A DNA stretch of 55,004 bases from Cyanophora paradoxa CCMP329. Taxonomy: Eukaryota > Plantae > Glaucophyta. The stretch lies in the NCBI GenBank assembly GCA_004431415.1, contig QPMI01000285.1, forward strand, positions 1 to 55,004. The letters are read 5' to 3'. The position numbers were made by a program, and so were the translations under genes. The notes below the pieces were generated by a model. The model had not been told where the DNA came from, made no database searches, and saw only the letters and a program-made list of their open reading frames with translations. Positions 1 to 55,004 of this stretch are shown piece by piece. Each line of letters begins with the position of its first letter. Position 1 is the stretch's first letter.

Positions 1-3000
1 TCAGGTGGGAAGGTTAACGGAGGATTTGTGATATGCTCCCATAAATGTGTATGGGCGAAATCTGTGATTGATCTTTGTGTGAGTATGGGCAAAAATCTGT
101 TATTTGATCTTTGGTGTGTGTATGGGCGAAATCTGTGATTTGATCTTTGTGTGAGTATGGGCGAAATCCGTAATATCTGCTTTTGTGTGTTTTTGTTTTG
201 CTAACCAATCTAAAACAACATTCGATGTTGGATGATGTGGTAGAGTTGCATTTTTGGTAACTGTGAGATTTTCAATAAATATATTGCTCGAATTAATTTT
301 AAGATCTTCATTATTCAATATGGGCTGCGTATTTGGAAATCCATACAATAATTGTATATAATATCTAACCGCGTTCTTTTCTTCAATAGATAACGCACGA
401 TTGAAAACGATAATTTCGGCAAGATCTCCATTAGCAACAGAAGAACCAAATGATGCAAAATTAGAAGGTGGAAGAAAATCACCCGATGAAGTTCCAATAT
501 CAATACCACCCATTCCTACGACAATTTGCTCTGAGGAAACAGTGAAATCCCAATAATTCCACGAATTATAATATATGATGCATCGAATAATGGAGGAGTT
601 GCATTTTCTATATCGTTTTGAATTTGAGTGAAACCCAAACTTTTGATTTTTACAACCATATCCAATCCAATTTTGATAAGAACTATCCCTTATACTCAAC
701 ATATAAGAAGGATTTGTAGTATTGATCCTACCTATAAAGAATAATGTAAGACCTAATGACCAATCTATTGAAACACTATTCCTATAAGCCATGTTTAATT
801 CTTTCCCAATCGAAATTTGATTGTTCAGGGTTGCATTCAAATAATAATAAACAGTTTCCCAATTCGAATATTTGTAATATGGTATCTGTGTAGTAACTCT
901 GTTATATATCTGACCTTGAAATATATCAACTGACCATGTTGACCTGATGCTTTCCATGCAAATATACAATTTGGAATAATTGGGGCTGGATCAATGACAG
1001 TAGTAACAGCATAGTAAGGTCTATAAAGTATTTGTATAGTATTTTGTGTTCCAATTGTTATATTTCGATACACTGTAAGATTACTTGTGTAAATATCATC
1101 TGCCCATAGTTACTTGCCAATGTTACTTGCCCATAGTTACTTGATATGTTACTTGTATAAAGGTTACTGGTGAAAATGTTACTTGTGACTGTAAGGTTTG
1201 TGTCATTTTTGATCACAAAAAGAGAAAGAATGTTTGTTAATTCACCTTCATCAATATATCCTTGCTCTTCTAAATAATCCTCTGTGACCACTCTCGAAAT
1301 GTTCTCATTGTGTATGTTTTTTGCAGCCATCCTCTGATTGGCTTCCAGAACCCCACCATAATCTGTTTTAATCCATGCAAGCTCTGCCCTCCATAATTAT
1401 CATTTGCAGTTCCCACTATGGGAATGTAGGAATATTTATCTCGACTGAAACTATCATTGGTCTTGAGCCATCTAAACTGCTTACATCTGCTACATGAACC
1501 TGTATAGCAGAGTTGTAATTTTGGTAGGTTGCTGGGTCTGTTGGGACTCTGAATGTATCTGTGGGAATGTCAGCCTCCATGTAGCTTGACACAAAGATAT
1601 TTGGTATGGTTGCTCCTGGTTCAGGTGGTGGATCATAAGAGCCTGGTATGTCCTAATATGAAGTGGTCCTCTCATAGCTGAATTTGCAAGTGTCCATTCA
1701 CATGACATAGTGTTCATTCAAAAAATCCTTTCAGGGACATTGCAAGTCTGGTAAAGAGAAACCCCCAGTTATCAAGAGGCTCCACCTTTGCGAATCTGGT
1801 TGTCATTTTCTCATCCCAAGTATGTTCATGTTTGCTTGGTGGGAAACTCAGTAGGTATCCCATCAATTTCACCCCAATCATGCCTGTGATCCTCTGGTGG
1901 ATACTTTTGAGGTTTGCCTAAGATCTCATCCAATCATGATTGTGATCCTCTGGGGGATACTTTGCAGGTTTATTATTAATTTGTTCATAATCAGGAAAGA
2001 ACTCCCAGATCTCAGGTCGAAATCCATCTGTAATAATTCCTCATGGGGTTCATAAGGTTGCTCATAATCAACAACTGGTGGATCATGCCCATCTGGCAAA
2101 TACTCCTCATCAGGTTCATAGTTCTGCTCATACTCAAACTCTTGAGGATCTAAGCCATCTGGTAGTATCTCCTCCTCATTGGGGTCAAATTGATCATACT
2201 CATACTCTTGTGGGTCAAAACCATCTGGTAAATACTCCTCCTCATCTGGAACGAATTGATATTCTTCAAGCTCTAATATATCGATTTCAGGAGGTAAATA
2301 CTGCTCATCTATTTGCTTTCTGGGTTCAATTATAGGTTTATTGCGAACTTGCTCCCACTCACATATGCTGCCCAAAGGCTACATCTTCAGTTGCTGTGTA
2401 TTCTCTTCCAGGCTGCTTCTTTGGTGTTAGATCGGGTGTCCATTGGGAAATGGAATAGGGAATGGGACAGTAGGTCCATTGGGACCATAATGCTCAATGA
2501 TTTCCCTTAGAGTTTTCTCACTAACAAGCTTCTCTCATTTGCATACACATTGCTGCCATGGATATTTCGCCATTGCCTGGTTCGAATTCCAAGGTCTTTC
2601 ACATTGCTATACAAAGGCAAAAGGTGCCTATCCATTTCGACTAAATCAGGATGCAAATGGATTGCTACTGGTTGACTGGGCTACTGTTGATTGTAATTGA
2701 TGGCTTTTTTTGATGGACATCTTTTGGAGTAAAGAACCCAAAGGCTCATTTCTTGCAAAGTCATATGTAATATCCTTGGGGTAGACATCATTTGTGTAGG
2801 AGACCTGATTGTATTGGCAATGGGACCCACTTGCAATACTTGGGGGACCTCAGCTTTTGCAGTGCTGCCCTCATTGTAAATTCGTAAAGCTGTGTTCTGT
2901 TTGCCCTGCTCATCTTGAACATTGAAAATCAATCGACCACTATCGAACCTGGAAGGTATATCTGGATGAGTGCCACTGGTTTTGAGTTTCTAGGTCTCCT

Positions 3001-3255
3001 TCTGGTGGCTTTGATCTCTGCCACTTGGTTTGCTTTCACATTACCCAAACTAAAAGCTACACTGACATCCTCTTTATCTGGATCAGTTTGATTCACAGAT
3101 AAAGCATGCTCCCTTGATTGAGTCTTTGATGAATTATCAGAGCTGTGGTCAATTGAAACTGAACCCTTTACTTTAATATTATCAAAGTTCACATGCTTGG
3201 TGTGCTTGCATTATCATCTTGAATGGTTTCTAGATGGTGGGTAATTGAAGCTCAT
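1..3255 (-). CDS. Large modular fibre/spike protein, copy A (N-terminal part; frameshifted; runs off window)
   Basis: ATG at 3255 equivalent to 53525 in copy B. ORF fragments 2929-3192, 2681-2932, 1926-2375, 1058-1330, 837-1073 and 100-969 are collinear with copy B. Contains acidic LPDG repeats, HxH repeats and a LamG-like domain (AEIIVFNRALS). Confidence 0.8.
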
Positions 3256-3298
3256 GGCTTTTACTATATGGATTTATAAAATTCCTGATAAGTAAAAG

Positions 3299-4848
3299 AT
3301 GCCTCTCAAAGTAGTTCTCAGTTTGTCAGGGGAGGTGCAAGGGCATTATCATAACCAGGCTGCTCAAAGAAATCGAAAATCGAACTGGCAGGAGAATAAT
3401 CGATCTTGTGGATCTTGTGAGTGGAACTTCCACTGGTGGGATCATTGCTATTGGGTTAAACATCAGGCATCCTGATAAACCAGGTGAACCTAAACTGACA
3501 GCAAACGATTTACACAATATTTACCTAACTCAACTGCCCTTGATTTTCGCAAATCCTCGAAATATCATTGAAAATGCCCTATTTAACACAAAGTATGATG
3601 TGGGACCCTTGGAGACTGCAATCAATTCAGTTACTGGTGAATCACTAATACAGGATTCCCTTAAGACATTGTGATCACATCCTTTGATACTCAGAATATG
3701 AAACCAATATTTATCACAAATGACAACAATTACAACTTTATGCCTTGTAAGATTGCTGCTAGGGCTACTTCTGCTGCTCCTACATATTCTCTCCTGTAAG
3801 CATTGTTGATTTCAATAGGGGAGTATATGTCTGTCTCATTGATGGTGCCATTTCGGGAAACAATAATCCCAGTGTGTGTGGTTACAGCCATGCAAAGAAG
3901 ATTTACAGTGATGATGATGATATTATAGTAATAAGCATCTCTTGTGGTGAGGTAGACCCACATTTAGAGTCTGATTATGTGGGTTATGCTTATGAGACTG
4001 TAAACAGCTGGGGCATTCTCTCATGGATTGCCTCAACAGATGGAAGCCCATTGATTAACATGCTCATGGCTGCAAGTGAGCTTTCTGCCCTTGATAAGAT
4101 GGAGGAGTTGTTACCCTACAACTATGATCAGGATTATGGGAGATACTATAGGTTATCAGTCCCTCTTCCAAATCATATAGTAAGCTCCCTGGATGACACA
4201 TCTAAGATCCCAGACATGCTTGCATTCACTGAAACATACATTGCAGCAAACAATGATATGATCAATAAGCTTTGCAGCCTTCTAGTAGCAAACTATGAAC
4301 TAAAGAACCCTTCAAAGGCTTACATTTCATCCACTCTCACTACATCACCTCCTTTGGATGCCAATTGGTATCAGCTTGCAGATGATGCCTTTACTGCCTC
4401 ATCCTCTGTGACAGGTAAGAGCCTTCATGGCAAGACCTTCAGCATTTGGCTGGGAAGCTGGAGCCTTTGCTCCTGAGCAGATATGGGAAACCCCCACTGA
4501 ATACCTTCAAGTTGCTTTCCCATACACTTTTGAACTCTCCTCTGTGATTGCCTATGGCTCAGGGGACACCAATGCTTTTATTAAGACTTTCAATGTGGCA
4601 ACATCCACTGATGGGATCAACTGGTCTTTTATTCGATCAGATGGGCAAAACAAAATGTATGTCTGTGAGAACATTAACAATGCTCACAACTCAGGTGATG
4701 TGGCTCTATTGAGTGGATTTCCTCTCAGCATCAAGGATGCTTTTTACATAGGTTATTCTCTGAGAATCAAGTATATTCGCATTTATCCCTTGTGTATGTG
4801 AATGCTCCCACAATGAGAGTTGACTTTACAGGTGCCTTTATTCGATAA
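3299..4848 (+). CDS. Patatin-like phospholipase with C-terminal F5/8 type C (discoidin) domain, copy A (frameshifted)
   Basis: GTSTG nucleophile elbow and DGA motif (GGGARG intact in copy B). C-terminal FTASS..W..EYLQV..STDGINW..IRIYP..MRVDFTG is discoidin-like. Restoring one base at ~4790 gives the stop at 4846-4848. Confidence 0.88.
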
Positions 4849-5767
4849 ACTCCAACTGAAAAGAATTATCGATTCCATTCATATCAATCAGTTCACCAAA
4901 GTAATCTTTAAACTCCACAGTGAGTTCCCTTATCACCAGGTTTCTGTCATTGATTTGAATAAATTCTGCATGTTCACCACTATGGTAAACATAGCCCCCT
5001 ATATCTTTACTCAATTGCAATCTAAGGATAGCTCCCTGATTTGTGGTTGCGATTTTGGAATTATATTGTGTCTGCTGGCAAAGGGGACAGCTCTTTAATA
5101 TGCATGTACAGATACTGCTCAGCATTCATATCAGACATCTTCCTGCTGTCAAAATAATATTGCAAGGGCTTAGAGGAGAGTCTGGGTCCTGAGAAGGTGA
5201 TTCCCCATGCTGGGTGATCAGGTGTAATAGGTTTGCCATCATACTTTAACAGGTTCTCAGGTCGATAGGGTGATCCACCAACAGGAGGAGTGCTATAATA
5301 CCCAGTGGTGTATTCAGTAGAACTTACACCCAAAAGCTTTCCTATTCTCTGGTTGCTTGCAATAAAACGAAACTCATGGTTACTGTAAAACTCCACTTTA
5401 TAGGTTGTTGGGTTGTAGAATATCTTGAACTCAAAAGCTACTGTTTTGCCTGCAATAGTTTGGAAGCTTGAATAGTTCAGCCCATAATTATAAGGGTGTG
5501 TTACCCCAAAATGACCCTGATTGATGTAGCCACTGGGAAGGGGATACACTTGTTGTGTGATCACTTGGTTATATGAACCATCTTGGTAATTAAACTGAAC
5601 TGTTAGATGATCAGTTCCCACACTGTTATAGATGCTGTTTGGAATCTCTGCATATAGAACCCTGCATTCCCTTGGTCTCTCTACTGGAGTTGTGAGGGTG
5701 ACCCTGTAAGAGTTTTCATTTTGTCCTTGCTTCTATCCCTGCTATCAATATTAACGAGCCGGTTCAT
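4838..5767 (-). CDS. Minor capsid protein (penton) 1, frameshifted
   Basis: N-term MNRLVNIDSRDR...VLYAEIPNSIYN and C-term LTVEFKDYFGELIDMNGIDNSFQLE match the PLV/NCLDV single-jelly-roll penton pattern. Confidence 0.82.
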
Positions 5768-5795
5768 TTTAATATATAAATATAGATAAAGAAGA

Positions 5796-6803
5796 ATGCC
5801 TGTGGATTACATCGAGGTTAGCTCATTTAATACAATCTCTGGTGATGGTCCCACATCAAGCTTTGTGGCTAGACTCCCCAGTACTTATGAGAATGTGAGG
5901 GCTGTGAGACTGGTCTCAGCCGAATTTTATAACAGCATCCCTATGGTGAGTGGTGAAACCAAAGCAGGAGATATAACAGTTGACAACACTTTTAGTATTT
6001 ATTATTCTGAAGAGCTTGCGGGAGCTGGAATTACAGGAATTCCAACAACTCGCCCAGCTGCTGATTTTGAACAATGGAAACAATTCATTGTAAATCGCGA
6101 AACCCCCATTCAAAACCACCAACAGCTGGTGAATGTTATAAATGAAAAGTTTAATGACAGAAATCCTAAACCATCTGTTCGCTGCAAATGGGATGAGTCA
6201 CTGAAACGAATTATATTCCATTCCGAAAAAAGTTTTACCTGGCTTTCTCACTTGCTGTAGACCCAAACCTGAAAACAATCCAAAAGCTGTTAAGCTCAGC
6301 TCGACTTTTTGGTCTTGATCCTGGAAGATATGGTAATTCCCCAATCAAATCACAGGTCTATGATGCTCTCACTGATGGAATCTTTACTGGAACTCGAGTA
6401 AACGGTATTATATCTTCATTTGAGCCTGAAATGACCAGGGACAGTGTTTTGTTTGTGAGAGTAAAGGAGCTGGGTGATCTGGTGCAATGTGGGATGGTCT
6501 CCTGACTGGTTACTTCCATAAAATAGTGGTCCCTGACAAAGATTATGGTGAGCATGTAGTTTACAATTCGACAGAGGCTCATCCACTTTACAAATACTAT
6601 AATAGAAGGTTGGATTATCCACTTTCTCGGTTGATATTGTGAATGCTGTTAATGAACCAATTGATTTCGAGGGTCAACCTGTTCATCTTACCTTTGAAAT
6701 TCGCTATGGTGATGAGCCAGCTGGGGACCCAGTTTATGAATACTATAAGATGAGAATGTCGCAGCTTCACCCTTCCTATCCAGTTATTACAAACTTCGCA
6801 TAA
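5796..6803 (+). CDS. Minor capsid protein (penton) 2, frameshifted
   Basis: N-term SSFVARLPSTYENVRAVRLVSAEFYNS; C-term in shifted frame LSTFSVDIVNAVNEPIDFEGQPVHLTFEI, stop 6801-6803. Directly upstream of MCP. Confidence 0.8.
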
Positions 6804-6855
6804 ATTAAGGATCATTGGTAGATTTTTATGTTGCAGTATAATAAAAGAGAATATA

Positions 6856-8224
6856 ATGGATATCACTTCCACTCTTCAAAGACTTTCGCTGAAAGAAGCC
6901 CTAACAACCCCAGAGGAGGCGAAAGCCTTTTTCCTGGATAACTCCCTTATGCTTGGTCTCGAATCCAAGTCTAAGCCAGTTCTAGTTGTTGTGAATCCTA
7001 GTAATACTTTCACAAATAATGTAGGAAATCGCATTTCCTTCAAGCTACCTCGCTACAATTTCTGTGGAAAACTCGAACTTGCTTTTGACCTTCCAGCTAT
7101 CACTTTTGCTGGTGATACTGATCTAGTTCGCAATGGATACACTCGCCCAGTTGGTGCTTTAGTTCAGCGACTTGAAATTACCTATGGATCTTACACCTAC
7201 CATATTCCATCTGATTTCCTTGCTCATTTCCCCCTGGTCTATTATTCGGAGGATCAACTAGCTAAAAAGAAACGATCAATGGGCATGGTTCATGGCATCC
7301 CTGCTCATGGAACCAACCGACTTGGTGGCTCATTTTTCGTTGAAATTCCAGTGCCTTGGCTAAATCACTACCTTCCCCTTGGTGCTTTATCTGGTGAAAT
7401 GGTTGTTACTGTTTGGTTTAAGGATGTTGGAAAAGGCTATGTTGAAACATCCTATGGTGGTCGTGGTCTTACTGTTGCAGCAGCTGATGTAGATTATTCA
7501 AAAGATGATGGTCTTGGAACTGCCCCTGCTGAAACTGTTCTGGCAAATGTTGGTCAAAACATCACAGACTTTACTCTTGGTGCAACAACTCCTGAAATTT
7601 CAATTACTTCTCCTCGCTTTATATGCATGCTATTAATGTTTCTGATGAGCTTTTCGCTACTGTAATTGAAAAGTTAAGACTACTGGCATGGCTATTCCCT
7701 CCCTTGATATTGGATTTGTTGATGCTATTGCTTTCCCTGCTAAGGGCAATGCCCAACCCAATCGAATTAACCTCTCTCAAATCTCAGGTCTTGTATATGC
7801 TCTGCTTGTTTCAGTTCGTGATAATGCAACTGTTGACAAATCCAATGGCTCCCACAGTGTTCTTAAGACCTATGCCAACTCCAAAGACATAACATTTACA
7901 ACTGAAATAAATGGTCAGCGACTTTTTGCCACTGAGCCAATTTCCCTACTCAAAGGTGCTGAGCTAATTGCTGATGCCTTCAAATGCTCTAACATGGATA
8001 AGGTTGCTGATCGCTATGTCCTTTCAGGATTGCCTTTCTGCCTTGATGGAGAAAAGGCGATTCGAAATATTGCCCAGTCTGGTTATGTTGATTTAACAAA
8101 TTCCTCCTCTTCATTCCTCACCCTCTACATGCCTTCAGATAAGGTAATCGATGTTAATGTTCGCGCTCTCATGCATAGCTTTATTATTGTCGACAAAGAT
8201 GGTTTACGCAGAATTAATTTATAG
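6856..8224 (+). CDS. Major capsid protein (double jelly-roll), one frameshift near 7620
   Basis: SFKLPR..LELAFDLP..GALVQRLEITYG..FVEIPVPW..YLPLGAL..VVTVWF resembles the DJR MCP N-terminal barrel. ~455 aa combined; sits between penton and ATPase. Confidence 0.82.
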
Positions 8225-8289
8225 ATTGTTACGATATTCAGTCTCCCTGCATTATTTTTATATGTCTTTATTAAGAAAGATATACAACA

Positions 8290-8983
8290 ATGACTGATTT
8301 GGATGAATTTGTGGCTGGTGAAATGATAGAACCACCATTTCGTGTATTGGCAATAGGAAAATCAGCAACTGGTAAATCAGAAGCTGTAAAGTATTGGTTA
8401 AAGCAATTACATGATGCCAAAAAGATTGATGTTGTATTAGTTGTGAGTGGAACCAGCTTCAATCATTTCTGGGATAAAGTGGCAACACTGCAACTGGGAA
8501 AATGGGATGCCCTTACATTGCTAAATTGCTAGATGAGAGGCAAGAGAAAATAGAGAAAGGTGAACCTGTTAACCAATTGTGTGTGGTTTTAGATGATTTA
8601 ATCGATAATGAGATAGTCGATCTCACAAGGATAAAATAATCGGATCTCTGTATTCCAGAGGTCGCCATTCGAAAATATCCATTATCTGCATCACACAAAA
8701 GCTAAGAAAAGTCTCTTCGACTATTCGAGTAAATTCGGATTATGCAATGTTTCTAAGTGCTGCAAATCGCAAAGAACTGGAAGCCATAGAGGAAGAATAC
8801 AATATAATGCGAAATAAAGAGGATTTCTACAAGATGTTTGAAGAGTATGTTCACTCCTATCAGTATATCATTTGGTCCTCTGCAAACTACTCAGTTAAAT
8901 ACTATGTAGATAAAGCTGAGCTTGTGAAAGATTTCCCATTTCCTCGCTTCCACAGGAAGCCAAAAAGAAAGAAGATGAACTGA
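8290..8983 (+). CDS. A32-like (FtsK/HerA) genome packaging ATPase, frameshifted
   Basis: Walker A GKSATGKS; Walker B CVVLDD (~8580-8597); RGRHSKISIICITQ motif (~8657-8698). Confidence 0.9.
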
Positions 8984-9096
8984 AACCACCAGAGAAAGAG
9001 GAAGCCCCAAAGAAGTGAAAAGCCAAGTCCATAGCAATAAATTGATGCGATATAAACGCGGTTTATAAAATTATCTCTCATTCTAATAAAGATACA

Positions 9097-9828
9097 ATGC
9101 CTCCCAAACGAAAGATAGGGATCCCAGCTGGGGCTGTTGGCTATTCAGGTGGTGGAAACAATGGATCCATTAACACAGACCCACTGAAATTCAATGGTAT
9201 GAATGAAGTGAAGCCCTCTCAACAACAAGAAGACCCCCTCAATGCTGCCTATGAGGAATCATTTGATGACAAAGCCCACAGGCTTCAACCAGTGACCAAC
9301 TCAACATTTCACCTGAAGCCTCAAAGATGAAGGCTGTTGCTGAGGGAGCCAGGCGAATTATTGGTGCTGCTGATGATAAAGGTTTAGGCTTGCAAGATCT
9401 TTCACTGGCTCGCAAAGGTGAAGGTCTAAGTAAGGAATCAGACAAGGTTATCCAGTCTATGGCTGGTGAAGTCACATATAAGACTGCTCCCACTCAAAAT
9501 ATTCATCGAATTCCCAAGGCTCAATGGGATGAGGTGACTGCTAAACTCAAAGATCTGGAAGCCAAATCAAGTGCCTTGGAGCAGTATGTTACTGAGAAGA
9601 AAGAGAGGCTAAGCTAAAGGAGATGCTTCGAAAGGAAGTTTATAAAATGGGCATTACTGGTGTCCCAGATAAACAGTTTATTGCTAAGAAAGAGACCCAA
9701 ATCGATGAGCAAGCAGTAGATGAAATGAAAACAAAGACCCAAAAGGAACCATTGAACCTGGTGCCACTAAAGCTGAAGTAGAAAAGGGAGTAGCTCCCAC
9801 AGTATATAAAAGACGAGTTTGGCTTTAA
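9097..9828 (+). CDS. Hypothetical viral protein (MPPKRK start; frameshifted; 3' end uncertain)
   Basis: Abutting ORFs 9097-9330 and 9327-9617 and a downstream frame share element-type codon usage; upstream TAATAAAG motif. Confidence 0.5.
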
Positions 9829-9850
9829 TTTTCTCTGTTTTATTAGAGAC

Positions 9851-10123
9851 ATGGATATAATACGAAAGTTTATTGAGATGCTCAGTCTGCATGTGGTAAG
9901 CAATTGCCACAGTGGATGCTGTGACACAACAATAGAGTTTGAGATGTCAGATACTGAGGATAATGCCTCAGAAGCAAGAGAGAGAAGGAGGTCTACGATT
10001 TCTGTGGAGTCAATGCCAGCAGACCCCAATGAGTATGCATATGAGCAGCAGGAGTATCCAAGGAGAAGTTCTTTACCAGCAGAAAACGTTTTCTCTGGGA
10101 ATATAAATGGAGGACACTATTAG
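9851..10123 (+). CDS. Hypothetical 90-aa protein
   Basis: ORF with upstream TATTAGAG motif; no recognisable domain. Confidence 0.5.
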   Translation: MDIIRKFIEMLSLHVVSNCHSGCCDTTIEFEMSDTEDNASEARERRRSTISVESMPADPNEYAYEQQEYPRRSSLPAENVFSGNINGGHY

Positions 10124-13636: not shown

Positions 13637-13645
13637 GTTTACTCA

Positions 13646-44253: not shown

Positions 44254-44305
44254 GTTAGTTGGTGTAGTTGATTCAAAAAATGCATTTTATACTCTGATTC
44301 ATTGT

Positions 44306-44656: not shown

Positions 44657-44714
44657 GATCAATGTTATTGTTAGATACCAAAGGAATCCTTTCAAAACTC
44701 ATTATAGAAACCCA

Positions 44715-45113
44715 TCAAAACGGAAATCTATCATGTTTATGTCTTTCAGTCTTCTCAAATGTGAGGAAATTCATTGTTTTATCGATCTCATCTGCTACTG
44801 CTTGTGTTTTATGCTGAGCTTCTTTACCACAACTAAATATATCAATTGCTAACATGCCTTCATTGGAATAACAATGAGCTGTACAGTGGCTTTCATCTAA
44901 TAGCAGAACCAATGCAAAACCAGGAGGTGATACTTTGCCATCAAATATCTCACAGTGTTTATGAACAATCCTAATACCTTGTCTCAATATAGCTTGTTCA
45001 AGGGTTCCCATAATCCAATTACCTAGAAAACTAACATGCTCATGTCCTGTTGCAATAGCTGATTTAGCTTTGTAATCAAGCATAACATGAAAGCCTCTGT
45101 ATTTAGTCTTCAT
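44715..45113 (-). CDS. speD: Prokaryotic-type S-adenosylmethionine decarboxylase proenzyme homologue
   Basis: GFHVMLD, LLDE-SHCTAHCY (pyruvoyl self-cleavage site), AIDIFSCG; 132 aa. Confidence 0.88.
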   Translation of the reverse strand: MKTKYRGFHVMLDYKAKSAIATGHEHVSFLGNWIMGTLEQAILRQGIRIVHKHCEIFDGKVSPPGFALVLLLDESHCTAHCYSNEGMLAIDIFSCGKEAQHKTQAVADEIDKTMNFLTFEKTERHKHDRFPF

Positions 45114-45142
45114 TAAGAATACCTAAGAAAAATTAATTAAAC

Positions 45143-45415
45143 CTAATCGAACCGAATGCAAACATCCCTATATTCCACTGTGATTGATGAAGTAGCCCTT
45201 TTCCTATAAGCCTGAGAATGCTTTTTGTTGCATTCCCTGCATCCTGATCCCTTCACATGATTAAAGGGATATGTTAGGATCACCTTGTTACACTGCAAAC
45301 ATCTAACAGATACTTTCTCTTGAGCTTTGATGTAATGTGTCTCACTGTAATCGAATTTATCTTTACCATGGACTGTCATAGCAGCATCAATAAACTTTTT
45401 TGTTTTACTATCCAT
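45143..45415 (-). CDS. DUF723-like zinc-ribbon protein
   Basis: FI..A..VHG.DKFDYS...Y.....KV...C..C......P.NH..GSGC..C. Confidence 0.75.
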   Translation of the reverse strand: MDSKTKKFIDAAMTVHGKDKFDYSETHYIKAQEKVSVRCLQCNKVILTYPFNHVKGSGCRECNKKHSQAYRKRATSSITVEYRDVCIRFD

Positions 45416-45437
45416 ACTCTATATATAACCAATATTC

Positions 45438-46271
45438 TTATGGAGCAGTATCCTGCCCGAAAATGGGGAAATATCGATTTGTCCCATAGTATTCAGCATA
45501 GGTATTCTGCTTTGCAATAAAATCGGTTCTCTCAGCATATAATACACACTTGTAGATACCAAACTTGGTGGCTCTCACTAAGAACTGATAGTCTTCCAAA
45601 CCGAAATTGACTCCATGATAAGCAATTCCGAAATTATCATATGGGGTGATCACTACTGCAAAGTTGGGAGTTCCACCTTCAACTTGGCATACAGCATAAA
45701 CATCTGGTGGGATATCCACAACAACCTTGTAGTGATCACCAATCTCAACAAGAGAGTCTACTACTGCTGTTTGTTCATTCACAACAATGGGGAATATCTT
45801 TATAATGTATGGGGCATTCATGCTGGGGACATAGGTTCGAATTCTTGTGTTGGGATCAATGGGATTGGGTTGATCATTCACAAATAAAGGCGCTCCAACA
45901 GCCCCACCAACCCGAAGACCATCACCAATATAAGCTCCCCCCGATTTGCAGTTAATAGCTCCCGACCTAGATTCAAAAGAATAAGTAGACAGAGGATCTC
46001 CATAGCTATCTGGGTCTCCATAATGAGCAGAAAAGTTTGCATTTGTGACAAGTAGCTTAGTTGTCTTAACTATTCCATTATTTTTATCACATCTGAGTTC
46101 CTGTAATCTCAGCTTGTGGGTGGAACCAAAGGTGTTCATTGTAGGTTGGACCTCTGTTGATTGGAGACCCTCTACATCATCAAAGGTAGCATGCTGTAAA
46201 ACATGGTTTGCTGGGGCAGCTAATGATAGTTGAGGTGTAATAATTCGTTCAAGTGGGGGTTGCTCAGCCAT
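45438..46271 (-). CDS. Putative structural protein (paralogue of 46295-47149)
   Basis: ELRCDKNNGIVKTTKLLVTNANF..SGGAYIG shared with neighbour. Confidence 0.7.
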   Translation of the reverse strand: MAEQPPLERIITPQLSLAAPANHVLQHATFDDVEGLQSTEVQPTMNTFGSTHKLRLQELRCDKNNGIVKTTKLLVTNANFSAHYGDPDSYGDPLSTYSFESRSGAINCKSGGAYIGDGLRVGGAVGAPLFVNDQPNPIDPNTRIRTYVPSMNAPYIIKIFPIVVNEQTAVVDSLVEIGDHYKVVVDIPPDVYAVCQVEGGTPNFAVVITPYDNFGIAYHGVNFGLEDYQFLVRATKFGIYKCVLYAERTDFIAKQNTYAEYYGTNRYFPIFGQDTAP

Positions 46272-46294
46272 TTTACATTAAAGGGATATATCTT

Positions 46295-47149
46295 TTATGG
46301 GGTTGGGTCATCAATTACATCTGGTTCCATGTAAAATCCTGTTGTGAATATATCAGCAACATTTACCCCACGAAGTGCTGATACAGCTGCTATATCTGTT
46401 CTCAGTCCCATAATCATAGTATTGTATACTCCAACCTCAGTGACAAACAGATCATAGGTAAATGTCAAATTGTTATAAACACAATATCCTCTGCCAAAAT
46501 GGTTCGAAGCTTGAACAAAGAATAAGTAGTTGTGTCCTGGTTGATTATTATTGGCTCTACACATGGAAAGCATTGCAGTGGGAAGAGGAATATTTCTTCT
46601 TACTCGATCAGTTCCTGTAATGGAAACCAATTCTGAATTTTCAAGAGTGACAGATGATGCAACATAGAAATGCAGAAAAGGTTGCTGTGCAACTGGTGTA
46701 TAGAAACGTATTCGTTGGGGATTCTCTACATTTTGTTCAAGAGTATCTGGGACATCATTATACGAAATTGAGGATGAAAGTTGACCTGAAATTCGACAGC
46801 CACCCCCAATAAATGCTCCTCCTGATCTCACAGTAACAGCTGCAGAATTCTTGTCGAAATCAAGGGCTTTCAGATCAACACTGTAAGCATCTGGACCTCC
46901 ATTAGTAGGTTGGAAGAAGTTTGCATTTGTGACAAGGAGTCGAGTTGTTTTCACCACACCTGAATTCTTATCAGCTCTCAGCTCTTTAACTCGAATAATC
47001 GAATTCTTATCAAAGGAGTTACCATTGGAATTGGGTCTCTCTGTGGATTCTAAACCACGAACCTCATCATTAACTTCATGCTGGCGAAAATGCATTGCAG
47101 GGGATCCAAGGGAATATATAGGCAGTTGAACTCGATTATATTCACCCAT
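46295..47149 (-). CDS. Putative structural protein (start MGEY; paralogue of 45438-46271)
   Basis: ELRADKNSGVVKTTRLLVTNANF..SGGAFIG; upstream TAGTAAAAG motif. Confidence 0.7.
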   Translation of the reverse strand: MGEYNRVQLPIYSLGSPAMHFRQHEVNDEVRGLESTERPNSNGNSFDKNSIIRVKELRADKNSGVVKTTRLLVTNANFFQPTNGGPDAYSVDLKALDFDKNSAAVTVRSGGAFIGGGCRISGQLSSSISYNDVPDTLEQNVENPQRIRFYTPVAQQPFLHFYVASSVTLENSELVSITGTDRVRRNIPLPTAMLSMCRANNNQPGHNYLFFVQASNHFGRGYCVYNNLTFTYDLFVTEVGVYNTMIMGLRTDIAAVSALRGVNVADIFTTGFYMEPDVIDDPTP

Positions 47150-47188
47150 TGCTTCTTTTACTAAGAAGTAAAGAAAAATAAACTGCAA

Positions 47189-47494
47189 TCAAGCCAAAGT
47201 GATTAAATTCGATCCAAGGGATTGGTAGGCAACTGAAAGTGATTGAAGGTTGGATGTCATCGCTTTGAGGTTAGAATCACATTCACCATATTTTTTTACT
47301 GGGTCACCATGAGCCGATTGCGCAAGGACATTAACCAAGAGGTTTTTATACTCATTTACAACTGGTGAGAGCTTGTTAGTTTGCTGAATCGTTTTTTCAA
47401 CTGTTTGTAATGCGTTTACAAGGGTGATTGTATCGAAAGAAAGCGCAACAGGCTCAGTTGAATAGGTGGTTCCACCAAGAGGATAGGTCGCCAT
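47189..47494 (-). CDS. Hypothetical 101-aa helical protein
   Basis: ORF tightly packed behind the fibre gene. Confidence 0.6.
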   Translation of the reverse strand: MATYPLGGTTYSTEPVALSFDTITLVNALQTVEKTIQQTNKLSPVVNEYKNLLVNVLAQSAHGDPVKKYGECDSNLKAMTSNLQSLSVAYQSLGSNLITLA

Positions 47495-47497
47495 TTA

Positions 47498-50400
47498 TTA
47501 TACTTTGACATTTTTAATTTGGTCTATTTGATCCTGTAGATCTTTGCATTTTTGGGACAACTCCTTCACAGCTTCAATGAGAACTGGAATTAAACCTGTG
47601 TATTCAAGAGATAGGTAGCCATCGTCTTTTTTAACATTAACTACCTCTGGTATTACCTTTTGAACATCTTGTGCAATTAAACCTAATTTAACTCCATCTT
47701 TTTCACTTCCAATTCGTTTAAAACTCACTCCCTCTAATTTCTCTATTGCTGAAAGAGCGCCGGTTATCTTTTTAATATCTGTTTTGTATCTTATGTCACT
47801 TCCTTGTGTTAAATAACCTCCAATCCACATCCATCCTCCATGATACATGTAACAAATATCAGTATCTTGTTCATTTCGGAATACAAGGGGAATATCTCCC
47901 CCTCCTTTCAAATATGTAGAAGTTTGGTTACCGAAATGGATACGATGGTATCCATCACTTGAACTAAACCAAGTCCCCACAGTTCCTGTTAAGATATTTG
48001 GTTTACTATAAACGTTATTCCAATGAATATAGCCGGTGTGACCACCATAACTATTTCCTACCCAAATTTTCATGTAACTAATACCCATAATATGAACTCT
48101 TCCAATCTTTGGTCTAATCCGAATAGTGAGGAATCTATTTCCAAGATGTATTGGAACATTATTTATACCACTGTGGTTACCATCAGGAGATGTGGCGTAT
48201 GGTTGATAACTATTCACTGATGTAATAAAAACTTCATTCCCTTGTCTATTAACTCCCCAAATTTCAAAAAGTCGTGAGTTAGTCCAAGGTAAATAGGTTA
48301 AAAATGCTGTTCCTGTGTGGTATCCATCGGGTATATCGAAGTCAATCCAAGCGGTAGATGTTTGATCATCCGTTTGATTATTATAGACATATGAACCATA
48401 ATTATAATATGGATCCCATGCTGAACTCCATGCCCATGTCCAACCCTCAGAACATCTATTAAATGCAATACCTCCTACTGTTTTATCTGCTGTGTGAAAC
48501 TTTGGAACAGCATTACCATTTATTTGAAGATCTGTTGTCGCATTAATAGTGGGTGCTGTAATAGTGTTTTTCACCCAAAAGTTACCATTGTTATAAGACT
48601 TTAAAATTGCTCCATCTGCTGAGTCTCTAAATTCAATTGACACACCGTCACCATTCGGTCTCCCTCGTATATATGTGCAATCGCCATTACCAAACCAAAT
48701 TCGCTCGACTGCATCTACTGATTTTAACCATGTATTTGTTGGCCATGTTGCTGTTCCTGGGAGGTCTGCGGCTGAGTAAAATGATGGTTTGCTATATACA
48801 TTATCCCAAGAGATCATCCCAACCTCATTATCTGTTGCCCTCTGTCTACTCCACCCAAAAACACCTGTAAGATGGATTCTACCTTTTCGACCTTGAACAT
48901 ATATTTTTGTGTAAAACTCACAGTTAATAGAGATGAAAAGTATACTGGATTGTGTTCCATCATGTACTGATGCTTGAATACCTTGATAAACATTTAAACG
49001 CCGAAGGAAATGTTGATTACCATTAGCTGTTTGACCATAGATGTCAAAATATCTACAATTAGACCAACACATGGTTTGAATATAAAACGTTTTCATTCCT
49101 GTGGGGACATTCCACCTCATCCAACAAGCGCTACAATCTTCATCATTTTGTGGTGTTGTATAACATCCTGTTTGTCCGGTTCTTGGTGTCCATCCTAAGT
49201 TCCAATTATTTGCGCTTCTATCTGTCGAAACCACATCTAATTGGTCGAAATCGTAACCTTTTGGTATTGTGGTTCCACCAATTTGTAAAGTGGTAGCATT
49301 CACAGTTCCTGTTACAGTTCCACCTGTAAGAGGTAAATAATTCCCAAGAGCTGCTGTTAATTCGGTATCTGTTACAACATCTGTAAGAGCTAATTGTAAT
49401 TCTGTATTTGTTACATAATCTTTGTTTTCTAAATAATCATCTGTAACAACACCAGAGAGGGTCTCATTGTGTAAGTTTTTTGCTGCCATCCTCTGATTGA
49501 CTTCTAAGGCTCCTCCTGCTAATGTTTTAATCCAGGACATTTCGCATTTCCCATAGTTATCTGATGGTTGTCCCGCAAGTGGGACATAATTGAATTTGGA
49601 TCGACTGAATATTATTTTAGGTCTGGAGCCATCAGTTGCACTGACATCTGTTACATTTACTTGCATAATGGCATCCTTGTCATCATATGCTGCTGGATCA
49701 GATGGGAGAGGTGGTAATCCTGATGTCAATGGGATGTCCTCATTATAATAACTTGTTAAGAAGATGCCTGGTTTGGTATCAATCACCCCAACACCACCTG
49801 CTGAAATCATTTGGATTCTTGTTGGTTGTTTGATGTATAATTCACCTTCCATTGTGGTCCCTCCATCAATGCCTTTTCGATTGACATAATAATCATTTAG
49901 TTGTAGCCTTTCAGGTATGGTATTACTCTGGTAGAGACTCACACCATTTGTAAAGTCTGTCAAAATATTGCCTGCTGATGAAAACCTGGGCTGCTGGTCG
50001 ATTTCACTCCAAGGGTGTCTGTGGTTACTGTTGGTGATCTGGGAATAATCATGAGTATGGGAATCAGGAGGGAATGTTAGTGGTCTATCTGTGATATGCT
50101 CCCATAAATGTGTGTGATCAAAATCTGTGATCTCTGATTTAGTATGAGTGTGGTTACTGTTGGTGATCTGGGAATAATCATGAGTGTGAGCAACAGGTGG
50201 AAAGGTCAATGGCTTGTCTGTGATATGCTCCATAAGTGATTGTGAGAACTGGGAGGGAATGTCAATGGCTTGTCTGTGATATGCTCCCATAAGTGATTGT
50301 GAGAACTGGAGGGAATGTCAATGGCTTGTCTGTGATATGCTCCCATAAGTGATTGTGAGAACTGGGAGGGAAGGTCAAAGGTTTATCTACAATATTCGAC

Positions 50401-53400
50401 CAGGCATGGGTGTGGTCAAAATCTGTAATCTGGGCTTTTGTGTGAGTGTGATTTTGAATCCAACCTTGAACCACATTAGAGGTTGGATGATGTGGTAAAT
50501 TTGCATTGCTTGTAACTGTAAGGTAATCTATTACAGTATCAGGTGAGGTTATTTTTAATCCTCTGTAAATATTCAGAGTCTGGGTATGAGTGAATCCATA
50601 TTTTTGTTGAATGTAATACCTCACAGCATTCTTTTCAGAAGTTGTCAAAGCCCTATTGAAAACAATCAACTCGGAAATACCACCATTCACAATATTACCA
50701 AATCCGAAATGATTGACAGTATTATCTGGTAGATAATTTGTTCCTACAAGTGTTTCAATATCTACTCCATTTAACCCGACTGTGTAGCTGCTGGAAGTAA
50801 TTGTTTGGTCAGTGTAATACCATGTATTTATTAAAGAAGGAACCGTAATAACTGGGCGGGTTTGGGATGCTCCATTAATAGTGAACTGGTTCATTCCAAT
50901 AGCAGTAGAAGATGTTGCCCCATAATAACAATATCGTGATGGAAAGGCGCTTCTGTAAAGTCTCAAGTGAACTTGCATAGAAGAGGCAGTTGGATGATAT
51001 TTTCCCACAAAGAAAAATGTAAGCCCATTTGAGAAATCAATAGTTCTTGCAGCAGAGGTATATGCATAAAAAGTGCCTGTTGGGTTTGAAACACTAACTT
51101 GGTTGTTGATTTCGGGATTGGTGTAATAGGAACTGGCTCCGGAGATAAACAAGTCTGGAACAACTGAATTCGGGACTCTGCTTACTATAGTTGTATACAT
51201 TGCTGATTGACCTGGTACTCCTGATGCCTTCCAAGCAAAAATGCAGTTCGAGATATTTGATGCTGGATCAAAGCTTGGTGGGACATCATACCATTCTTCG
51301 TAAACCTGATTCATGGTATTGAAATTGCAAGAGCCAATTGTGAGGATTCCATTACTTTCAAATTGCTGGTCTCTATATTGCTACTGTAAATATTACTATT
51401 AACTGTGAGGTTTCCTGTGATTGTCCCACCCACAAGAGGGAGATATTTGGATAGTTCTGCTGCAAGTTCAGCTTCTGTAATAAATTGATCAAGCATAGCA
51501 AGGGTTACAAAATTAACAAGGATTACTGCAGTAAGGTAATCCTCTGTGACCACTCTCGAAATATTTTCGTTGTGTATGTTTTTGCAGCCATCCTCTGATT
51601 GGCTTCCAGAACCCCACCATAATCTGTTTTAATCCATGCAAGCTCTGCCCTCCCATAATTATCATTTGCAGTTCCCACTATGGAATGTAGGAATATTTAT
51701 CTCTGCTGAATACTATCATTGGTCTTGAGCCATCCAAACTGCTTACATCTGCTACATGAACCTGTATAGCAGAGTTGAAATTTTGGTAGGTTGCTGGGTC
51801 TGTTGGGACTCTGAATGTATCTGTGGGAATGTCAGCCTCCATGTAGCTTGACACAAAGATATTTGGTATGGTTGCTCCTGGTTCAGGTGGTGGATCATAA
51901 GAGCCTGGTAATGTCCTAATATGAAGTGGTCCTCTCATAGCTGAATTTGCAAGTGTCCCATTCACATGTACATAGTGTTCATTCAAAAAGATTCTTTCAG
52001 GGACATTACAAGTCTGATAAAGAGAAACCCCCAGGGTTGCCAAAGGCTCCACCTTTGCAAATTCTGGTTGGTCATTGATCTCATCCCAAGTATGTTCATG
52101 TTTGCTTGGTGGGAACTCAGTTGGAATCCCATCAATTTCTCCCCAATCATGTCTGTGATCCTCTGGTGGATATTTCTCTGGTTTCCCTAAGATCTCATCC
52201 CAATCATGATTGTGATCCTCTGGGGGATACTTTGCAGGTTTATTATTAATTTGTTCATAATCAGGAAAGAACTCCCAGATCTCAGGTCGAAATCCATCTG
52301 GTAATAATTCCTCATAGGGTTCATAAGGTTGCTCATAATCAACAGCTGGTGGATCATGCCCATCTGGCAAATACTCCTCATCAGGTTCATAGTTCTGCTC
52401 ATACTCAAACTCTTGTGGATCTAAGCCATCTGGTAGTATCTCCTCCTCATTGGGGTCAAACTGATCATATTCATATTCTTGTGGGTCAAAACCATCTGGT
52501 AAATACTCCTCCTCATCTGGAACGAATTGATATTCATCAAGCTCTAATATGTCGACTTCAGGAGGTAAATACTGCTCATCTATTTGCTTTCTTGGTTCAA
52601 TTATAGGTTTATTGCGAACTTGCTCCCAACTAACAATATGCTGCCCAAAGGCTACATCTTCAGTTGCTGTGTATTCTCTTCCAGGCTGCTTTTTCGGTGT
52701 TAAATCCGGTGGATCCCATGGAAGAGGGAAGGGAACTGGGACAGGTCCATAATACTCAAAGATCTCTCTTATGGTCTTCTCACTTACAAGCTTCTCACCA
52801 TTTGCATACACATTGCTGCCATGGATATTTCGCCATTGCCTGGTTCGAATTCCAAGGTCTTTCACATTGCTATACAAAGGCAAAAGGTGCCTATCCATTT
52901 CAACAAGATCAGGATGTAAATGGATTGCTACTGGTTGACTGGGGCTACTGTTGATTGTAATTGATGGCTTTTTTTGATGGACATCTTTTGGAGTAAAGAA
53001 CCCAAAAGGCTCATTCCTCGCAAAGTCATATGTAATATCCTTGGGGTAGACATCATTTGTGTAGGAGACCTGATTTGTATTGGCAATGGGACCCACTTGC
53101 AATACTTGGGGGACCTCTGCTTTTGCAGTGCTGCCCTCATTGTAAATTCGCAAAGCTGTGTTCTGTTTGCCCTGCTCATCTTGAACATTGAAAATCAATC
53201 GACCACTATCAAACCTAGAAGGTATATCTGGGTGAGTGCCACTGGTTTTTAGTTTCCTAGGTCTCCTTCTTGTTGCTTTGATCTCTGCCACTTGGTTTGC
53301 TTTCACATTACCCAAGCTAAAAGCAACACTGACTTCCTCCTTATCTGGATCGGTTTGATTCACAGATAAAGCATGCTCCCTTGATTGAGTCTTGGAAGTA

Positions 53401-53525
53401 TTATCAGAGCTGTGGTCAATCGAAACTGAACCCTTTACTTTAATATTATCAAAGTTCACATGCTTGGTGCTGCTTGCATTATCATCTTGAATGGTTTCTA
53501 GATTGGGTGGGTAATTGAAGCTCAT
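47498..53525 (-). CDS. ~2000-aa modular fibre with C-terminal peptidase S74 intramolecular chaperone (frameshifted into 4 ORFs)
   Basis: SDIRYKTDI..GLIAQDVQKVIPEVV..LIPVLIEAVKEL; HxH repeats; duplicated ~180-aa module; LamG-like domain. Copy A restores the bases missing at ~51680 and ~51580. Confidence 0.85.
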
Positions 53526-53566
53526 GGCTTTACTATATGGATTTATAAAATCCTGATAAGTAAAAG

Positions 53567-55004
53567 ATGCCTCTCAGGGTTTGTTTAAGTCTTTCTGGTG
53601 GGGGTGCAAGGGGCATTATCATAACCAGGCTGCTAAAAGAAATCGAAAATCGAACTGGCAGGAGAATAATCGATCTTGTGGATCTTGTGAGTGGAACTTC
53701 CACTGGTGGGATCATTGCAATAGGTTTGAATATAAGGCATCCTGATAGACCAGGTGAACCTAAACTGACAGCAAACGATTTACACAATATTTACCTAACT
53801 CAACTGCCCTTGATTTTCGCAAATCCTCGAAATATCATCGAAAATGCCCTTTTTAATACAAAATATGATGTGGGACCCTTGGAGACTGCAATCAATTCAG
53901 TTACTGGTGAATCACTAATACAGGATTCCCTAAAGGACATTGTGATTACATCCTTTGATACTCAGAATATGAAACCAATATTTATCACAAATGATAACAA
54001 TTACAACTTTATGCCTTGTAAGATTGCTGCTAGGGCTACTTCTGCTGCTCCTACATATTTCTCTCCTGTAAGCATTGTTGATTTCAATCAGGGAGTATTT
54101 GTCTGTCTCATTGATGGTGCCATTTCGGGAAACAATAATCCCAGTGTGTGTGGTTACAGCCATGCAAAGAAGATTTACAGTGATGATGATGATATTATAG
54201 TAATAAGCATCTCTTGTGGTGAGGTGGACCCACATTTAGAGTCTGATTATGTGGGTTATGCTTATGAGACTGTGAACAGCTGGGGAATTCTCTCATGGAT
54301 TGCCTCAACAGATGGAAGCCCATTGATTAACATGCTCATGGCTGCAAGTGAGCTTTCTGCCCTTGATAAGATGGAGGAGTTGTTACCCTACAACTATGAT
54401 CAGGATTATGGAAGATACTATAGGCTATCAGTCCCTCTTCCAAATCACATTGTAAGCTCTCTGGATGACACATCTAAGATCCCAGATATGCTAGCATTCA
54501 CTGAAACATACATTGCAGCAAACAATGATATGATTAATAAGCTTTGCAGTCTTCTAGTAGCAAACTATGAACTAAAGAACCCTACAAAGGCTTACATCTC
54601 ATCCACTCTCACAGAGTCACCTCCTTTAGATGCTAATTGGTATCAGCTTGCAGATGATGCCTTTACTGCCTCATCCTCTGTGACAGGTAAAGAGCCTTTC
54701 ATGGCAAGACCTTCAGCATTTGGCTGGGAAGCTGGAGCCTATGCTCCTGAACAAATATGGGAAACTCCCACGAATACCTTCAAGTTGCTTTTCCATATAC
54801 TTTTGAACTCTCATCTGTGATTGCCTATGGATCAGGGAAACAAATGCTTTTATTAAGACTTTCAATGTGGCAACATCCACTGATGGATCAACTGGTCTTT
54901 TATTCGATCAGATGGGCAAAACAAAATATATGTCTGTGAGAACATTAACAATGCTCACAACTCTGGTGATGTGGCTCTATTGAGTGGATTTCCTCTCAGC
55001 ATCA
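53567..55004 (+). CDS. Patatin-like phospholipase-discoidin fusion, copy B (3' frameshifts, runs off window)
   Basis: LSLSGGGARG, GTSTG, ATSAAPTYF, DGA..NNP; discoidin-like tail as in copy A. Confidence 0.92.

What the first reader, a model, noticed from the sequence alone, without database searches (positions are those of the whole stretch)
1..55004. A ~27.5 kb integrating PLV with an unusual gene set can be reconstructed from two copies
Seen: B-left to patatin start (10,184 bp) plus A patatin start to right end (17,346 bp). It combines rve integrase and pPolB (Polinton-like), an AEP-D5 primase-helicase (PLV-like), two pentons, a phage-style S74 fibre, a phospholipase and a metabolic gene. 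No stand-alone adenain-type maturation protease was recognised. Inference: a virion-forming endogenous virus of a primary-plastid alga, possibly a new lineage.
Basis: partly seen in the sequence, partly recalled or inferred. Interest (0 to 1): 0.72.

Follow-up and report, generated by a model that had tools for sequence, protein, structure and literature searches.

The report
Catalogued algal provirus, proofreading-dead polymerase
These are two different partial copies of a small DNA virus family, likely in the genome of the alga Cyanophora, that published tables already list with this gene set; the stitched 27.5-kb genome is likely a chimera, and the fresh detail is a DNA polymerase that has lost its proofreading motifs and sits beside a separate primase-helicase.

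Summary
Real: two AT-rich proviral fragments (A 1-20644, B 43383-55004) flank GC-rich host DNA; the 27,530-bp sum and the gene list hold (pentons by motif only). A's frameshifts are likely assembly errors. But A and B are different variants: mostly synonymous differences, 68-79% identity in a fibre gene, different end palindromes and repeat words. The composite is a family sketch, not a genome. The host is likely Cyanophora paradoxa. Bellas 2023 lists 366 capsid hits there in two unnamed 'new' clusters, including the best capsid hit; Bulzu 2025 tabulates the cargo (rve, pPolB, PriCT-2, S74, lipase, AdoMetDC, no protease) and names the patatin-discoidin fusion. So the 'unusual gene set' is already in print. 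Not found in print: the polinton-type pPolB has lost ExoI/ExoII acids and about 100 residues while keeping vOTU and palm motifs, beside a motif-complete AEP-SF3 helicase gene, paralleling mavirus. The capsid is a double jelly-roll with few relatives and no named class. This scan already noted mosaic siblings, hairpin ends and origin-like repeats of this family on other pieces of the genome. Target-site duplications, expression and particles remain untested.

The parts
1..20644 (+). Copy A: right about 20.6 kb of an endogenous PLV, left end outside the window; many 1-nt frameshifts in its left two thirds, likely assembly errors
   Evidence: GC 39%, CpG o/e 0.36; short-read contigs carry one extra base at 12 listed breaks incl. 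7616 in the MCP
1..3256 (-). A fibre-like gene (phage-tail-repeat-like motifs); C-terminal part only 41-52% identical in protein to B's
   Evidence: (B counterpart)
3299..4801 (+). Patatin-like phospholipase followed by F5/8 discoidin domain, likely one fused gene
   Evidence: Pfam PF00754 (A) and PF01734 (B copy); contigs bridge the breaks
4838..5735 (-). Putative minor capsid protein (penton) 1, in two frames
   Evidence: 51-53% to a 314-aa unnamed homologue P0129; PLV penton end motifs recalled; fold failed
5796..6803 (+). Putative penton 2, in several frames, divergent from penton 1
   Evidence: shared N-terminal motif by eye, hhalign not significant; inferred
6856..8224 (+). [quoted passage not shown]
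   Evidence: 58% and 65% identical in the two pieces to P0001; P0001 model matches PBCV-1 Vp54, Foldseek E 4e-16, VIA Z 25.5, rmsd 3.9, 336 aligned
8275..8983 (+). A32-type packaging ATPase, in pieces
   Evidence: Pfam Pox_A32 E 1.3e-5 above cut-off; Walker A in sequence
10987..13636 (+). AEP primase - PriCT-2 - SF3 (D5-like) helicase - C-terminal domain, in five overlapping frames
   Evidence: PF08707 E 1.7e-9, PF19263 E 1.1e-12; PHROG primase; AEP and Walker motifs read in sequence (motif names recalled)
13645..13828 (+). Non-coding block after the helicase: degenerate direct copy of the inner right terminal repeat, with five GTKGACT words, one mirrored
   Evidence: local alignment score 86 vs best 31 of 200 shuffles; word map
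13880..14230 (+). GIY-YIG endonuclease
   Evidence: Pfam E 1e-10
14290..17535 (+). Protein-primed PolB, 1081 aa, intact frame: vOTU Cys/His and palm motifs A, B, C kept; ExoI and ExoII acids lost, about 100 residues up to ExoIII missing
17539..18924 (+). rve (DDE) integrase, intact frame
   Evidence: 26-32% to integrases next to pPolB in 4 of 4 IMG/VR loci
19823..19978 (+). 156-bp block, 100% inverted copy of 44306-44461; internal, 666 bp from A's end
20572..20644 (+). A right terminus: 73-nt palindrome with G.A-type mismatches near the loop
   Evidence: -30.6 kcal/mol vs mean -4.0 (best -8.6) of 200 base shuffles
20645..43382 (.). Host DNA, GC 66%: retroelement-like ORFs, thiamine-phosphate synthase and amidotransferase-like genes with short GC-rich introns; both viral ends interrupt long host ORFs
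43383..55004 (+). Copy B: left 11.6 kb of a second variant; right part outside the window
43383..43666 (+). B left terminus: 284-nt palindrome, different sequence from A's, same 7-nt ends and same mismatch pattern on the 3'-ending strand
43908..44253 (+). Two 149-bp units with eight GTGTGACA words, absent from A
44715..45113 (-). S-adenosylmethionine decarboxylase proenzyme
   Evidence: Pfam E 3.9e-11, PHROG E 3e-12
45438..47149 (-). Two paralogous genes of no known family (34% identical)
47498..50290 (-). Fibre with C-terminal Peptidase_S74 chaperone, 930 aa
   Evidence: Pfam E 1.7e-15; phage tail fibre PHROGs
50262..53525 (-). Second fibre-like gene, three 1-nt breaks bridged by contigs
53567..55004 (+). 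B patatin-discoidin
   Evidence: Pfam Patatin E 1.4e-20; break near 54771

Best explanation
The window holds two different members of a multi-copy, mosaic family of integrated Polinton-like viruses, likely of the glaucophyte Cyanophora paradoxa, already catalogued in published tables; joining them gives a plausible family size and gene list but likely not a genome that exists. Shown: gene content, double jelly-roll capsid fold (on a homologue), purifying selection between copies, loss of proofreading motifs in the pPolB. Inferred cycle: the DDE integrase inserts the linear genome through its short shared 7-nt ends; the provirus would sit silenced by host CpG methylation; once mobilised, copy A would be copied by the pPolB (terminal-protein priming, vOTU cleavage) without proofreading, with the separate AEP-SF3 protein unwinding, likely loading at the repeated-word blocks after the helicase gene and in the terminal repeats, as mavirus pairs an exonuclease-less pPolB with a separate SF3 helicase. 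The A32 ATPase would package DNA into a capsid with two penton types and S74-chaperoned fibres, without a maturation protease; patatin-discoidin would aid membrane crossing and AdoMetDC would raise polyamine supply.
For: Family: best MCP hit P0001 is a Cyanophora paradoxa EukProt record and is itself listed in Bellas 2023 Table S2 with a still closer 465-aa MCP; Table S4 gives 366 hits in clusters 21 (272) and 29 (94), both 'new', no group name. Cargo: Bulzu 2025 Table S6, 156 glaucophyte elements: A32 139, rve 85, PF03175 49, PriCT_2 15, S74 37, lipases 89, AdoMet_dc 66, proteases 0 in all 9 columns. Different variants: substitutions at third positions 29 of 36 (patatin) and 45 of 55 (fibre), synonymous to non-synonymous codons 30:5 and 42:10; different terminal palindromes and repeat words. 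Mosaicism: contig depth relative to B's flank differs by module, about 57-71 (MCP), 25-35 (primase), 9-11 (B's S74 fibre) in two runs (relative hint only). Exonuclease: ExoI, II, III motifs in 56, 57, 47 of 59 aligned homologues, absent in the window and in P0009. Mavirus parallel: PMC11161782 passages. Host methylation: PMC12344493 passages; viral genes CpG o/e 0.05-0.46 vs host 1.1-1.2.
Against: No complete copy was seen, so matched ends and target-site duplications are untested; the identical 156-bp block in A and B, and similar contig depth at both end types, also fit one element with asymmetric ends. Pentons are not confirmed by profile or fold. No virion, free DNA or transcript evidence. 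The host is named from a 58-65% capsid homologue and published tables, not from a host gene. Which of clusters 21 and 29 holds this MCP is not determined. Host retroelements are not CpG-depleted although reported methylated, so the depletion is not simply explained by silencing.
Confidence: 0.72

Rival explanations
1. The composite matches a real subfamily whose left and right ends differ by design (B-type left, A-type right) and share only the internal 156-bp inverted repeat.
For: 156 bp at 100% in inverted orientation, both ends begin and end with the same 7 nt; summed contig depths at both end types are of like order.
Against: A and B differ by 5.5% with synonymous bias and in fibre gene type; B has its own repeat word; unreviewed scan notes report the same palindrome at both ends of complete siblings.
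Confidence: 0.2
2. Copy A is an AEP-SF3-driven virus that gained a transpoviron-like GIY-YIG/pPolB/rve module; the block at 13645-13828 is the remnant of an older right end, and the pPolB is losing its role, so the eroded exonuclease is decay rather than an adaptation to a helicase partner.
For: The block is a direct copy of the inner right repeat and brackets the module; pPolB-rve adjacency is shared with 4 of 4 IMG/VR loci that have an unrelated capsid; such add-ons are described, with one contig from this genome (bioRxiv 10.64898/2026.10.13.758929).
Against: Palm motifs and vOTU Cys/His are intact in a full 1081-aa frame, and the same exonuclease loss is shared with P0009 at 48% identity, so it is old and stable. 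Not exclusive of the best explanation as to origin.
Confidence: 0.25
3. These are dead relics or purely intracellular transposons that no longer make particles.
For: Copy A is broken in many genes as assembled; no relatives of the MCP among IMG/VR or JGI contigs.
Against: 27 of 43 indels are single bases missing in A, 18 in homopolymers, and short-read contigs bridge the listed breaks; purifying selection on fibre and patatin; full morphogenetic module.
Confidence: 0.1

Closest known systems
Cyanophora paradoxa endogenous PLVs, MCP clusters 21 and 29 of Bellas et al. 2023 (PMC10120064, Tables S1, S2, S4) and the Glaucocystophyceae row of Bulzu et al. 2025 (PMC12220804, Table S6 and text)
   Same: Same capsid family (P0001 is in Table S2), same cargo classes, no protease, patatin-discoidin fusion named in text.
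   Different: Those sources give counts only; no name, gene map, end structure or polymerase analysis was seen in the parts I read. 154 of 156 elements escape Bulzu's MCP profiles.
Mavirus-like virophages (PMC11161782)
   Same: rve integrase, pPolB without working exonuclease, separate SF3 helicase gene.
   Different: Mavirus has a virophage capsid and a maturation protease (recalled) and only an exonuclease remnant; here the pPolB is polinton-type with an eroded domain, the helicase is fused to an AEP, and the capsid model is nearer NCLDV Vp54 (Z 25.5) than mavirus (Z 15.3).
Polintoviricetes (Maverick/Polinton groups 1-2, Gosseviruses; bioRxiv 10.64898/2026.06.19.733378)
   Same: pPolB plus rve, adjacent and co-oriented; phospholipase; 31-39% identity of pPolB to thousands of polinton-type enzymes.
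   Different: No cysteine protease; MCP profile finds nothing in the four pPolB-related IMG/VR loci; exonuclease motifs lost.
Multi-replicase mosaic polisuviruses (bioRxiv 10.64898/2026.10.13.758929)
   Same: Two replicase classes in one element, internal repeat bracketing one module, endonuclease beside it; a Cyanophora contig is among its examples.
   Different: Exonuclease status is not discussed in the four parts read.
Palindrome-ended virophages and PLV subtype 4 of Halocafeteria seosinensis (bioRxiv 10.64898/2026.07.28.741278)
   Same: Terminal palindromes at the edge of the terminal repeats.
   Different: There they go mostly with non-pPolB replication; copy A has both a palindrome and a pPolB.

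Membership tests
Polinton-like viruses (broad sense) | [quoted passage not shown] | tested here: met
   Model of homologue P0001 (pLDDT 61) matches PBCV-1 Vp54, E 4e-16, Z 25.5, rmsd 3.9, 336 aligned; window pieces 58% and 65% identical
Polinton-like viruses (broad sense) | A32-like packaging ATPase | tested here: met
   Pfam Pox_A32 above cut-off
Polinton-like viruses (broad sense) | [quoted passage not shown] | tested here: inconclusive
   Recalled motifs only; Pfam, PHROG, PDB profile blank, model pLDDT 36
Polinton-like viruses (broad sense) | 14-40 kb with terminal inverted repeats and target-site duplication | not testable with these tools
Polintoviricetes (Maverick/Polinton) | pPolB and rve integrase | tested here: met
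Polintoviricetes (Maverick/Polinton) | Ulp1/adenain maturation protease | tested here: not met
   No hit in 119 frames scanned; 0 of 156 glaucophyte elements in Bulzu Table S6; unseen parts of A and B are a caveat
Polintoviricetes (Maverick/Polinton) | Mavpol or GKS1-type capsid | tested here: inconclusive
   Clusters 21 and 29 carry no Mavpol or GKS label; only 5 non-self hits of 1.84 billion, one of them a spurious repeat protein; no named profiles at hand
Aquintoviricetes (TsV, PgVV, Dino groups) | MCP and ATPase fall in these clusters | not testable with these tools
   Group HMMs are in closed supplements; 2 of 156 glaucophyte elements hit Bulzu's MCP-POL profiles while 107 hit ATPase1-PLV
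Virophaviricetes (mavirus-like) | Virophage-type MCP and cysteine protease | tested here: not met
   No protease; 0 of 156 MCP-VIR hits; fold nearer Vp54 than mavirus or Sputnik
Nucleocytoviricota-related PLVs / Mriyaviricetes | Mriya48, HUH endonuclease, VLTF2/3 | tested here: inconclusive
   No such Pfam hit but no Mriya48 profile was at hand; best fold match to NCLDV capsids is usual for PLVs (PMC10120064 passage)
Cyanophora endogenous PLV family (Bellas clusters 21/29) | MCP above 25% identity to cluster members and the tabulated cargo | tested here: met
   58-65% to P0001, which Table S2 lists; cargo matches Table S6; which of the two clusters is not determined

The most novel reading that the evidence does not exclude
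The glaucophyte family is a deep, unnamed capsid lineage outside the three recognised Polisuviricotina classes, and its A-type members show a third, independent origin of the 'lose proofreading, gain a helicase' switch caught midway: a polinton-type pPolB with an eroded exonuclease working with a stand-alone AEP-SF3 protein at repeated-word origins and hairpin ends, in an axenically culturable alga where it can be tested.
Probability: 0.3. Interest if true: 0.6.

Novelty: already known. Interest (0 to 1): 0.32.

Why it matters
As given, the finding re-discovers a catalogued family, and the stitched genome should not be used as a reference. What is worth keeping: the family fills an estimated 7% of a model alga's genome (Bellas Table S4) yet has no name or description in the papers found, its capsid escapes most profiles, and the proofreading-dead pPolB beside an AEP-SF3 gene would be an independent test of the proposed trade-off between exonuclease and helicase in these viruses.

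Tried and rejected
MCP relatives with DNA context: none in IMG/VR for the window MCP piece, P0008, P0002 or the ATPase piece, none in JGI contigs for P0001 or P0008; these scans need near-exact words, so they are weak. ESM Atlas gave no result. Penton fold failed (pLDDT 36) and was not searched. Exact look-up of 10 window proteins: 0 of 10 in the collection. No RNA holder listed; X16 and X18 are RNA by guess only and of low depth, so they are not used as expression evidence. The pPolB tree is the quick tree only, 31 unnamed rows (window plus the first 30 of 60 aligned); it shows window + P0009 as a long separate branch but places nothing. P0003 (bacterial repeat protein) was dropped as a spurious MCP hit. 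A circular or overlapping contig (A and B as one copy) was rejected on synonymous divergence. Nearness of the capsid to NCLDV folds was rejected as evidence of a giant-virus link. Scan look-ups by sequence found nothing. Paper searches without a description of this lineage, of PLV AdoMetDC in main text, or of an exonuclease-dead polinton pPolB.
Full report
Layout. The window has three blocks: AT-rich 1-20644 (copy A, GC 39%), GC-rich host DNA 20645-43382 (66%) and AT-rich 43383-55004 (copy B, 38%). The edges are sharp. Contigs from three DNA-type runs begin to match host DNA at 20645, and one of them continues with 512 other letters, an uninterrupted form of the host element. The host block holds retroelement-like ORFs (an endonuclease-phosphatase domain at 41715-43427, zinc knuckles), a thiamine-phosphate synthase and an amidotransferase-like gene with short GC-rich introns (the last by recall).

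Genes. Pfam on 47 frames gave DNA_pol_B_2, rve (under cut-off), PriCT_2, DUF5906, Pox_A32, GIY-YIG, F5/8 discoidin, Patatin, Peptidase_S74 and AdoMet_dc; PHROGs agreed for primase, polymerase, transposase, decarboxylase and tail fibres. A further 68 short frames and 4 capsid homologues gave no meaningful hit and no protease. The MCP has no Pfam hit. Its N-terminal piece found 1 homologue among 1,688 candidates, P0001, a Cyanophora paradoxa EukProt record. P0001 found 5 other proteins among 1.84 billion representatives, one spurious. Its model (pLDDT 61) is a double jelly-roll: PBCV-1 Vp54 E 4e-16; VIA Z 25.5, rmsd 3.9, 336 aligned; mavirus Z 15.3. The two pentons are inferred from position and recalled end motifs; tests were blank.

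Are the breaks real? In the shared 3.3 kb, 27 of 43 indels are single bases missing in A (18 in homopolymers) and 10 are single bases missing in B. Short-read contigs carry one extra base at all 12 breaks listed for A, including the MCP break (64 more rows not shown), and at B's breaks. So the frameshifts are likely long-read consensus errors, as Bellas et al. warn (PMC10120064 passage).

Is the composite one genome? Likely not. A and B are 94.5% identical over 3.5 kb but 68-79% over A's first 1.3 kb, 41-52% in protein there. Substitutions fall at third positions (29 of 36 in 357 patatin codons; 45 of 55 in 493 fibre codons), synonymous to non-synonymous 30:5 and 42:10: separate variants under purifying selection. 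The perfect 156-bp inverted block lies 666 bp inside A's end and 923 bp inside B's; outside it only patches of 73-80% align. A ends in a 73-nt palindrome, B begins with a 284-nt one of other sequence; they share 7 terminal bases and a mismatch pattern on the 3'-ending strand. A's end region repeats one word, B's has eight copies of another word that A lacks. Single-contig depths relative to B's flank differ by module in runs X2 and X3: about 57-71 for the MCP, 25-35 for the primase, 9-11 for B's S74 fibre; the tool warns that depth is no copy number, so this is a hint of mosaicism only. Against this reading: the identical 156-bp block and similar depth at both end types also fit asymmetric ends, and no complete copy was seen.

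The polymerase. The 1081-aa pPolB hits 3,626 of 7,990 scored candidates; the best, P0009, is 48% identical over 96%, the rest 33-39% over 62-83%. Of the 120 listed, 94 were 950 aa or longer and the first 60 were aligned. ExoI, ExoII and ExoIII motifs are present in 56, 57 and 47 of the 59 other than P0009; the window and P0009 lack the ExoI and ExoII acids and about 100 residues up to ExoIII, while the vOTU Cys and His and palm motifs A, B, C align. Over all 120, with looser patterns, 100 have all three motifs and 2 lack both ExoI and ExoII: P0009 and an 812-aa protein that may be a fragment. Window and P0009 form one long branch in a quick tree. Krupovic et al. describe exonuclease loss paired with helicase gain in mavirus and Tlr1-like enzymes (PMC11161782 passages); copy A, with its AEP-SF3 gene, fits that rule by another route. 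Four IMG/VR loci found with the pPolB have the same pPolB-rve adjacency but no match to this MCP family; two of their capsid-sized ORFs resemble the Gossevirus MCP by eye. A 184-bp degenerate direct copy of the inner right repeat follows the helicase gene (score 86 vs best 31 of 200 shuffles) and brackets the GIY-YIG/pPolB/rve module; it may be an origin or an old end.

What is in print. Bellas 2023 (passages, one section, supplement rows): 366 MCP hits in C. paradoxa, clusters 21 (272) and 29 (94), marked new and without group name; Table S2 lists P0001 and a 465-aa MCP closer still at the N-terminus by eye. I read only part of Table S4, so other hosts of these clusters are unchecked. Bulzu 2025 (passages, Table S6): of 156 glaucophyte elements, A32 139, rve 85, PF03175 49, PriCT_2 15, S74 37, lipases 89, AdoMet_dc 66, all nine protease columns 0, MCP-POL 2; the text calls S74 fibres ubiquitous in PLVs and names discoidin-patatin fusions in glaucophyte PLVs. 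These are counts per domain, not per-element co-occurrence. Starrett 2021 (passage) notes adintovirus-like PolB and integrase relatives in this alga. Barth 2026 (parts 1-4 of 5) describes multi-replicase elements and cites a contig of this genome. Bellas and Sommaruga 2026 (parts 1-3 of 5) does not mention glaucophytes in its main text; its HMM supplement could not be seen and may place this capsid. Terminal palindromes are reported for Halocafeteria elements (passages). C. paradoxa methylates 32% of CpG, mainly repeats (PMC12344493 passages). PMC13215967 and PMC12721341 (passages) gave no case of an eroded exonuclease in a polinton-type pPolB; nor did search.

Earlier scan notes on other pieces of this genome (unreviewed) reported helicase-matched repeat blocks, replicase swaps under one capsid, and 75- and 95-nt palindromes identical at both ends of complete copies. 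I confirmed the block layout and the mismatch pattern in this window; the both-ends claim I could not test.

Verdict. Real, likely virion-competent endogenous PLVs of a family already catalogued with this cargo. The reconstruction is a family sketch. The unreported parts are the proofreading-dead pPolB beside an AEP-SF3 gene and the still unplaced capsid. Novelty: already known, with new details; interest 0.32.

Noticed in passing
window 6856-18924 and 44715-54820: Viral genes are strongly CpG-poor (o/e 0.05 in the integrase to 0.46 in the MCP) while the terminal regions (0.88-1.4) and the host retroelements (1.2) are not; may reflect selection against methylation silencing.
   Followed up: partly
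window 20645: A contig of run X3 crosses the A junction with 512 other letters while X1 and X2 contigs stop there: an empty form of the host element, or an insertion absent from that sample.
   Followed up: no
window 44306-44463 and 54655-55004: A 1,162-nt contig of run X18 joins the discoidin region to the 156-bp repeat on the opposite strand, which suggests an internally deleted, non-autonomous derivative.
   Followed up: no
window 43383-44335: A contig of X18 ends exactly at the left terminus and has one repeat unit where B has two; a branch point or a free end cannot be told apart.
   Followed up: no
window 45438-47149: Two adjacent paralogues (34% identical) with no Pfam or PHROG hit, at high contig depth, so likely core genes of the family.
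   Followed up: partly
window 20573-30500 and 41715-43430: Both proviral ends interrupt long ORFs of host retroelement-like sequences; the left one has orphan ORFs and spaced 120-150 bp repeats.
   Followed up: no
window 45143-45415: Small zinc-ribbon-like ORF matching HNH endonuclease PHROGs in part only.
   Followed up: no
L001-L004: Four IMG/VR elements of 15-20 kb with pPolB directly followed by rve; two have Gossevirus-like capsid N-termini by eye.
   Followed up: partly
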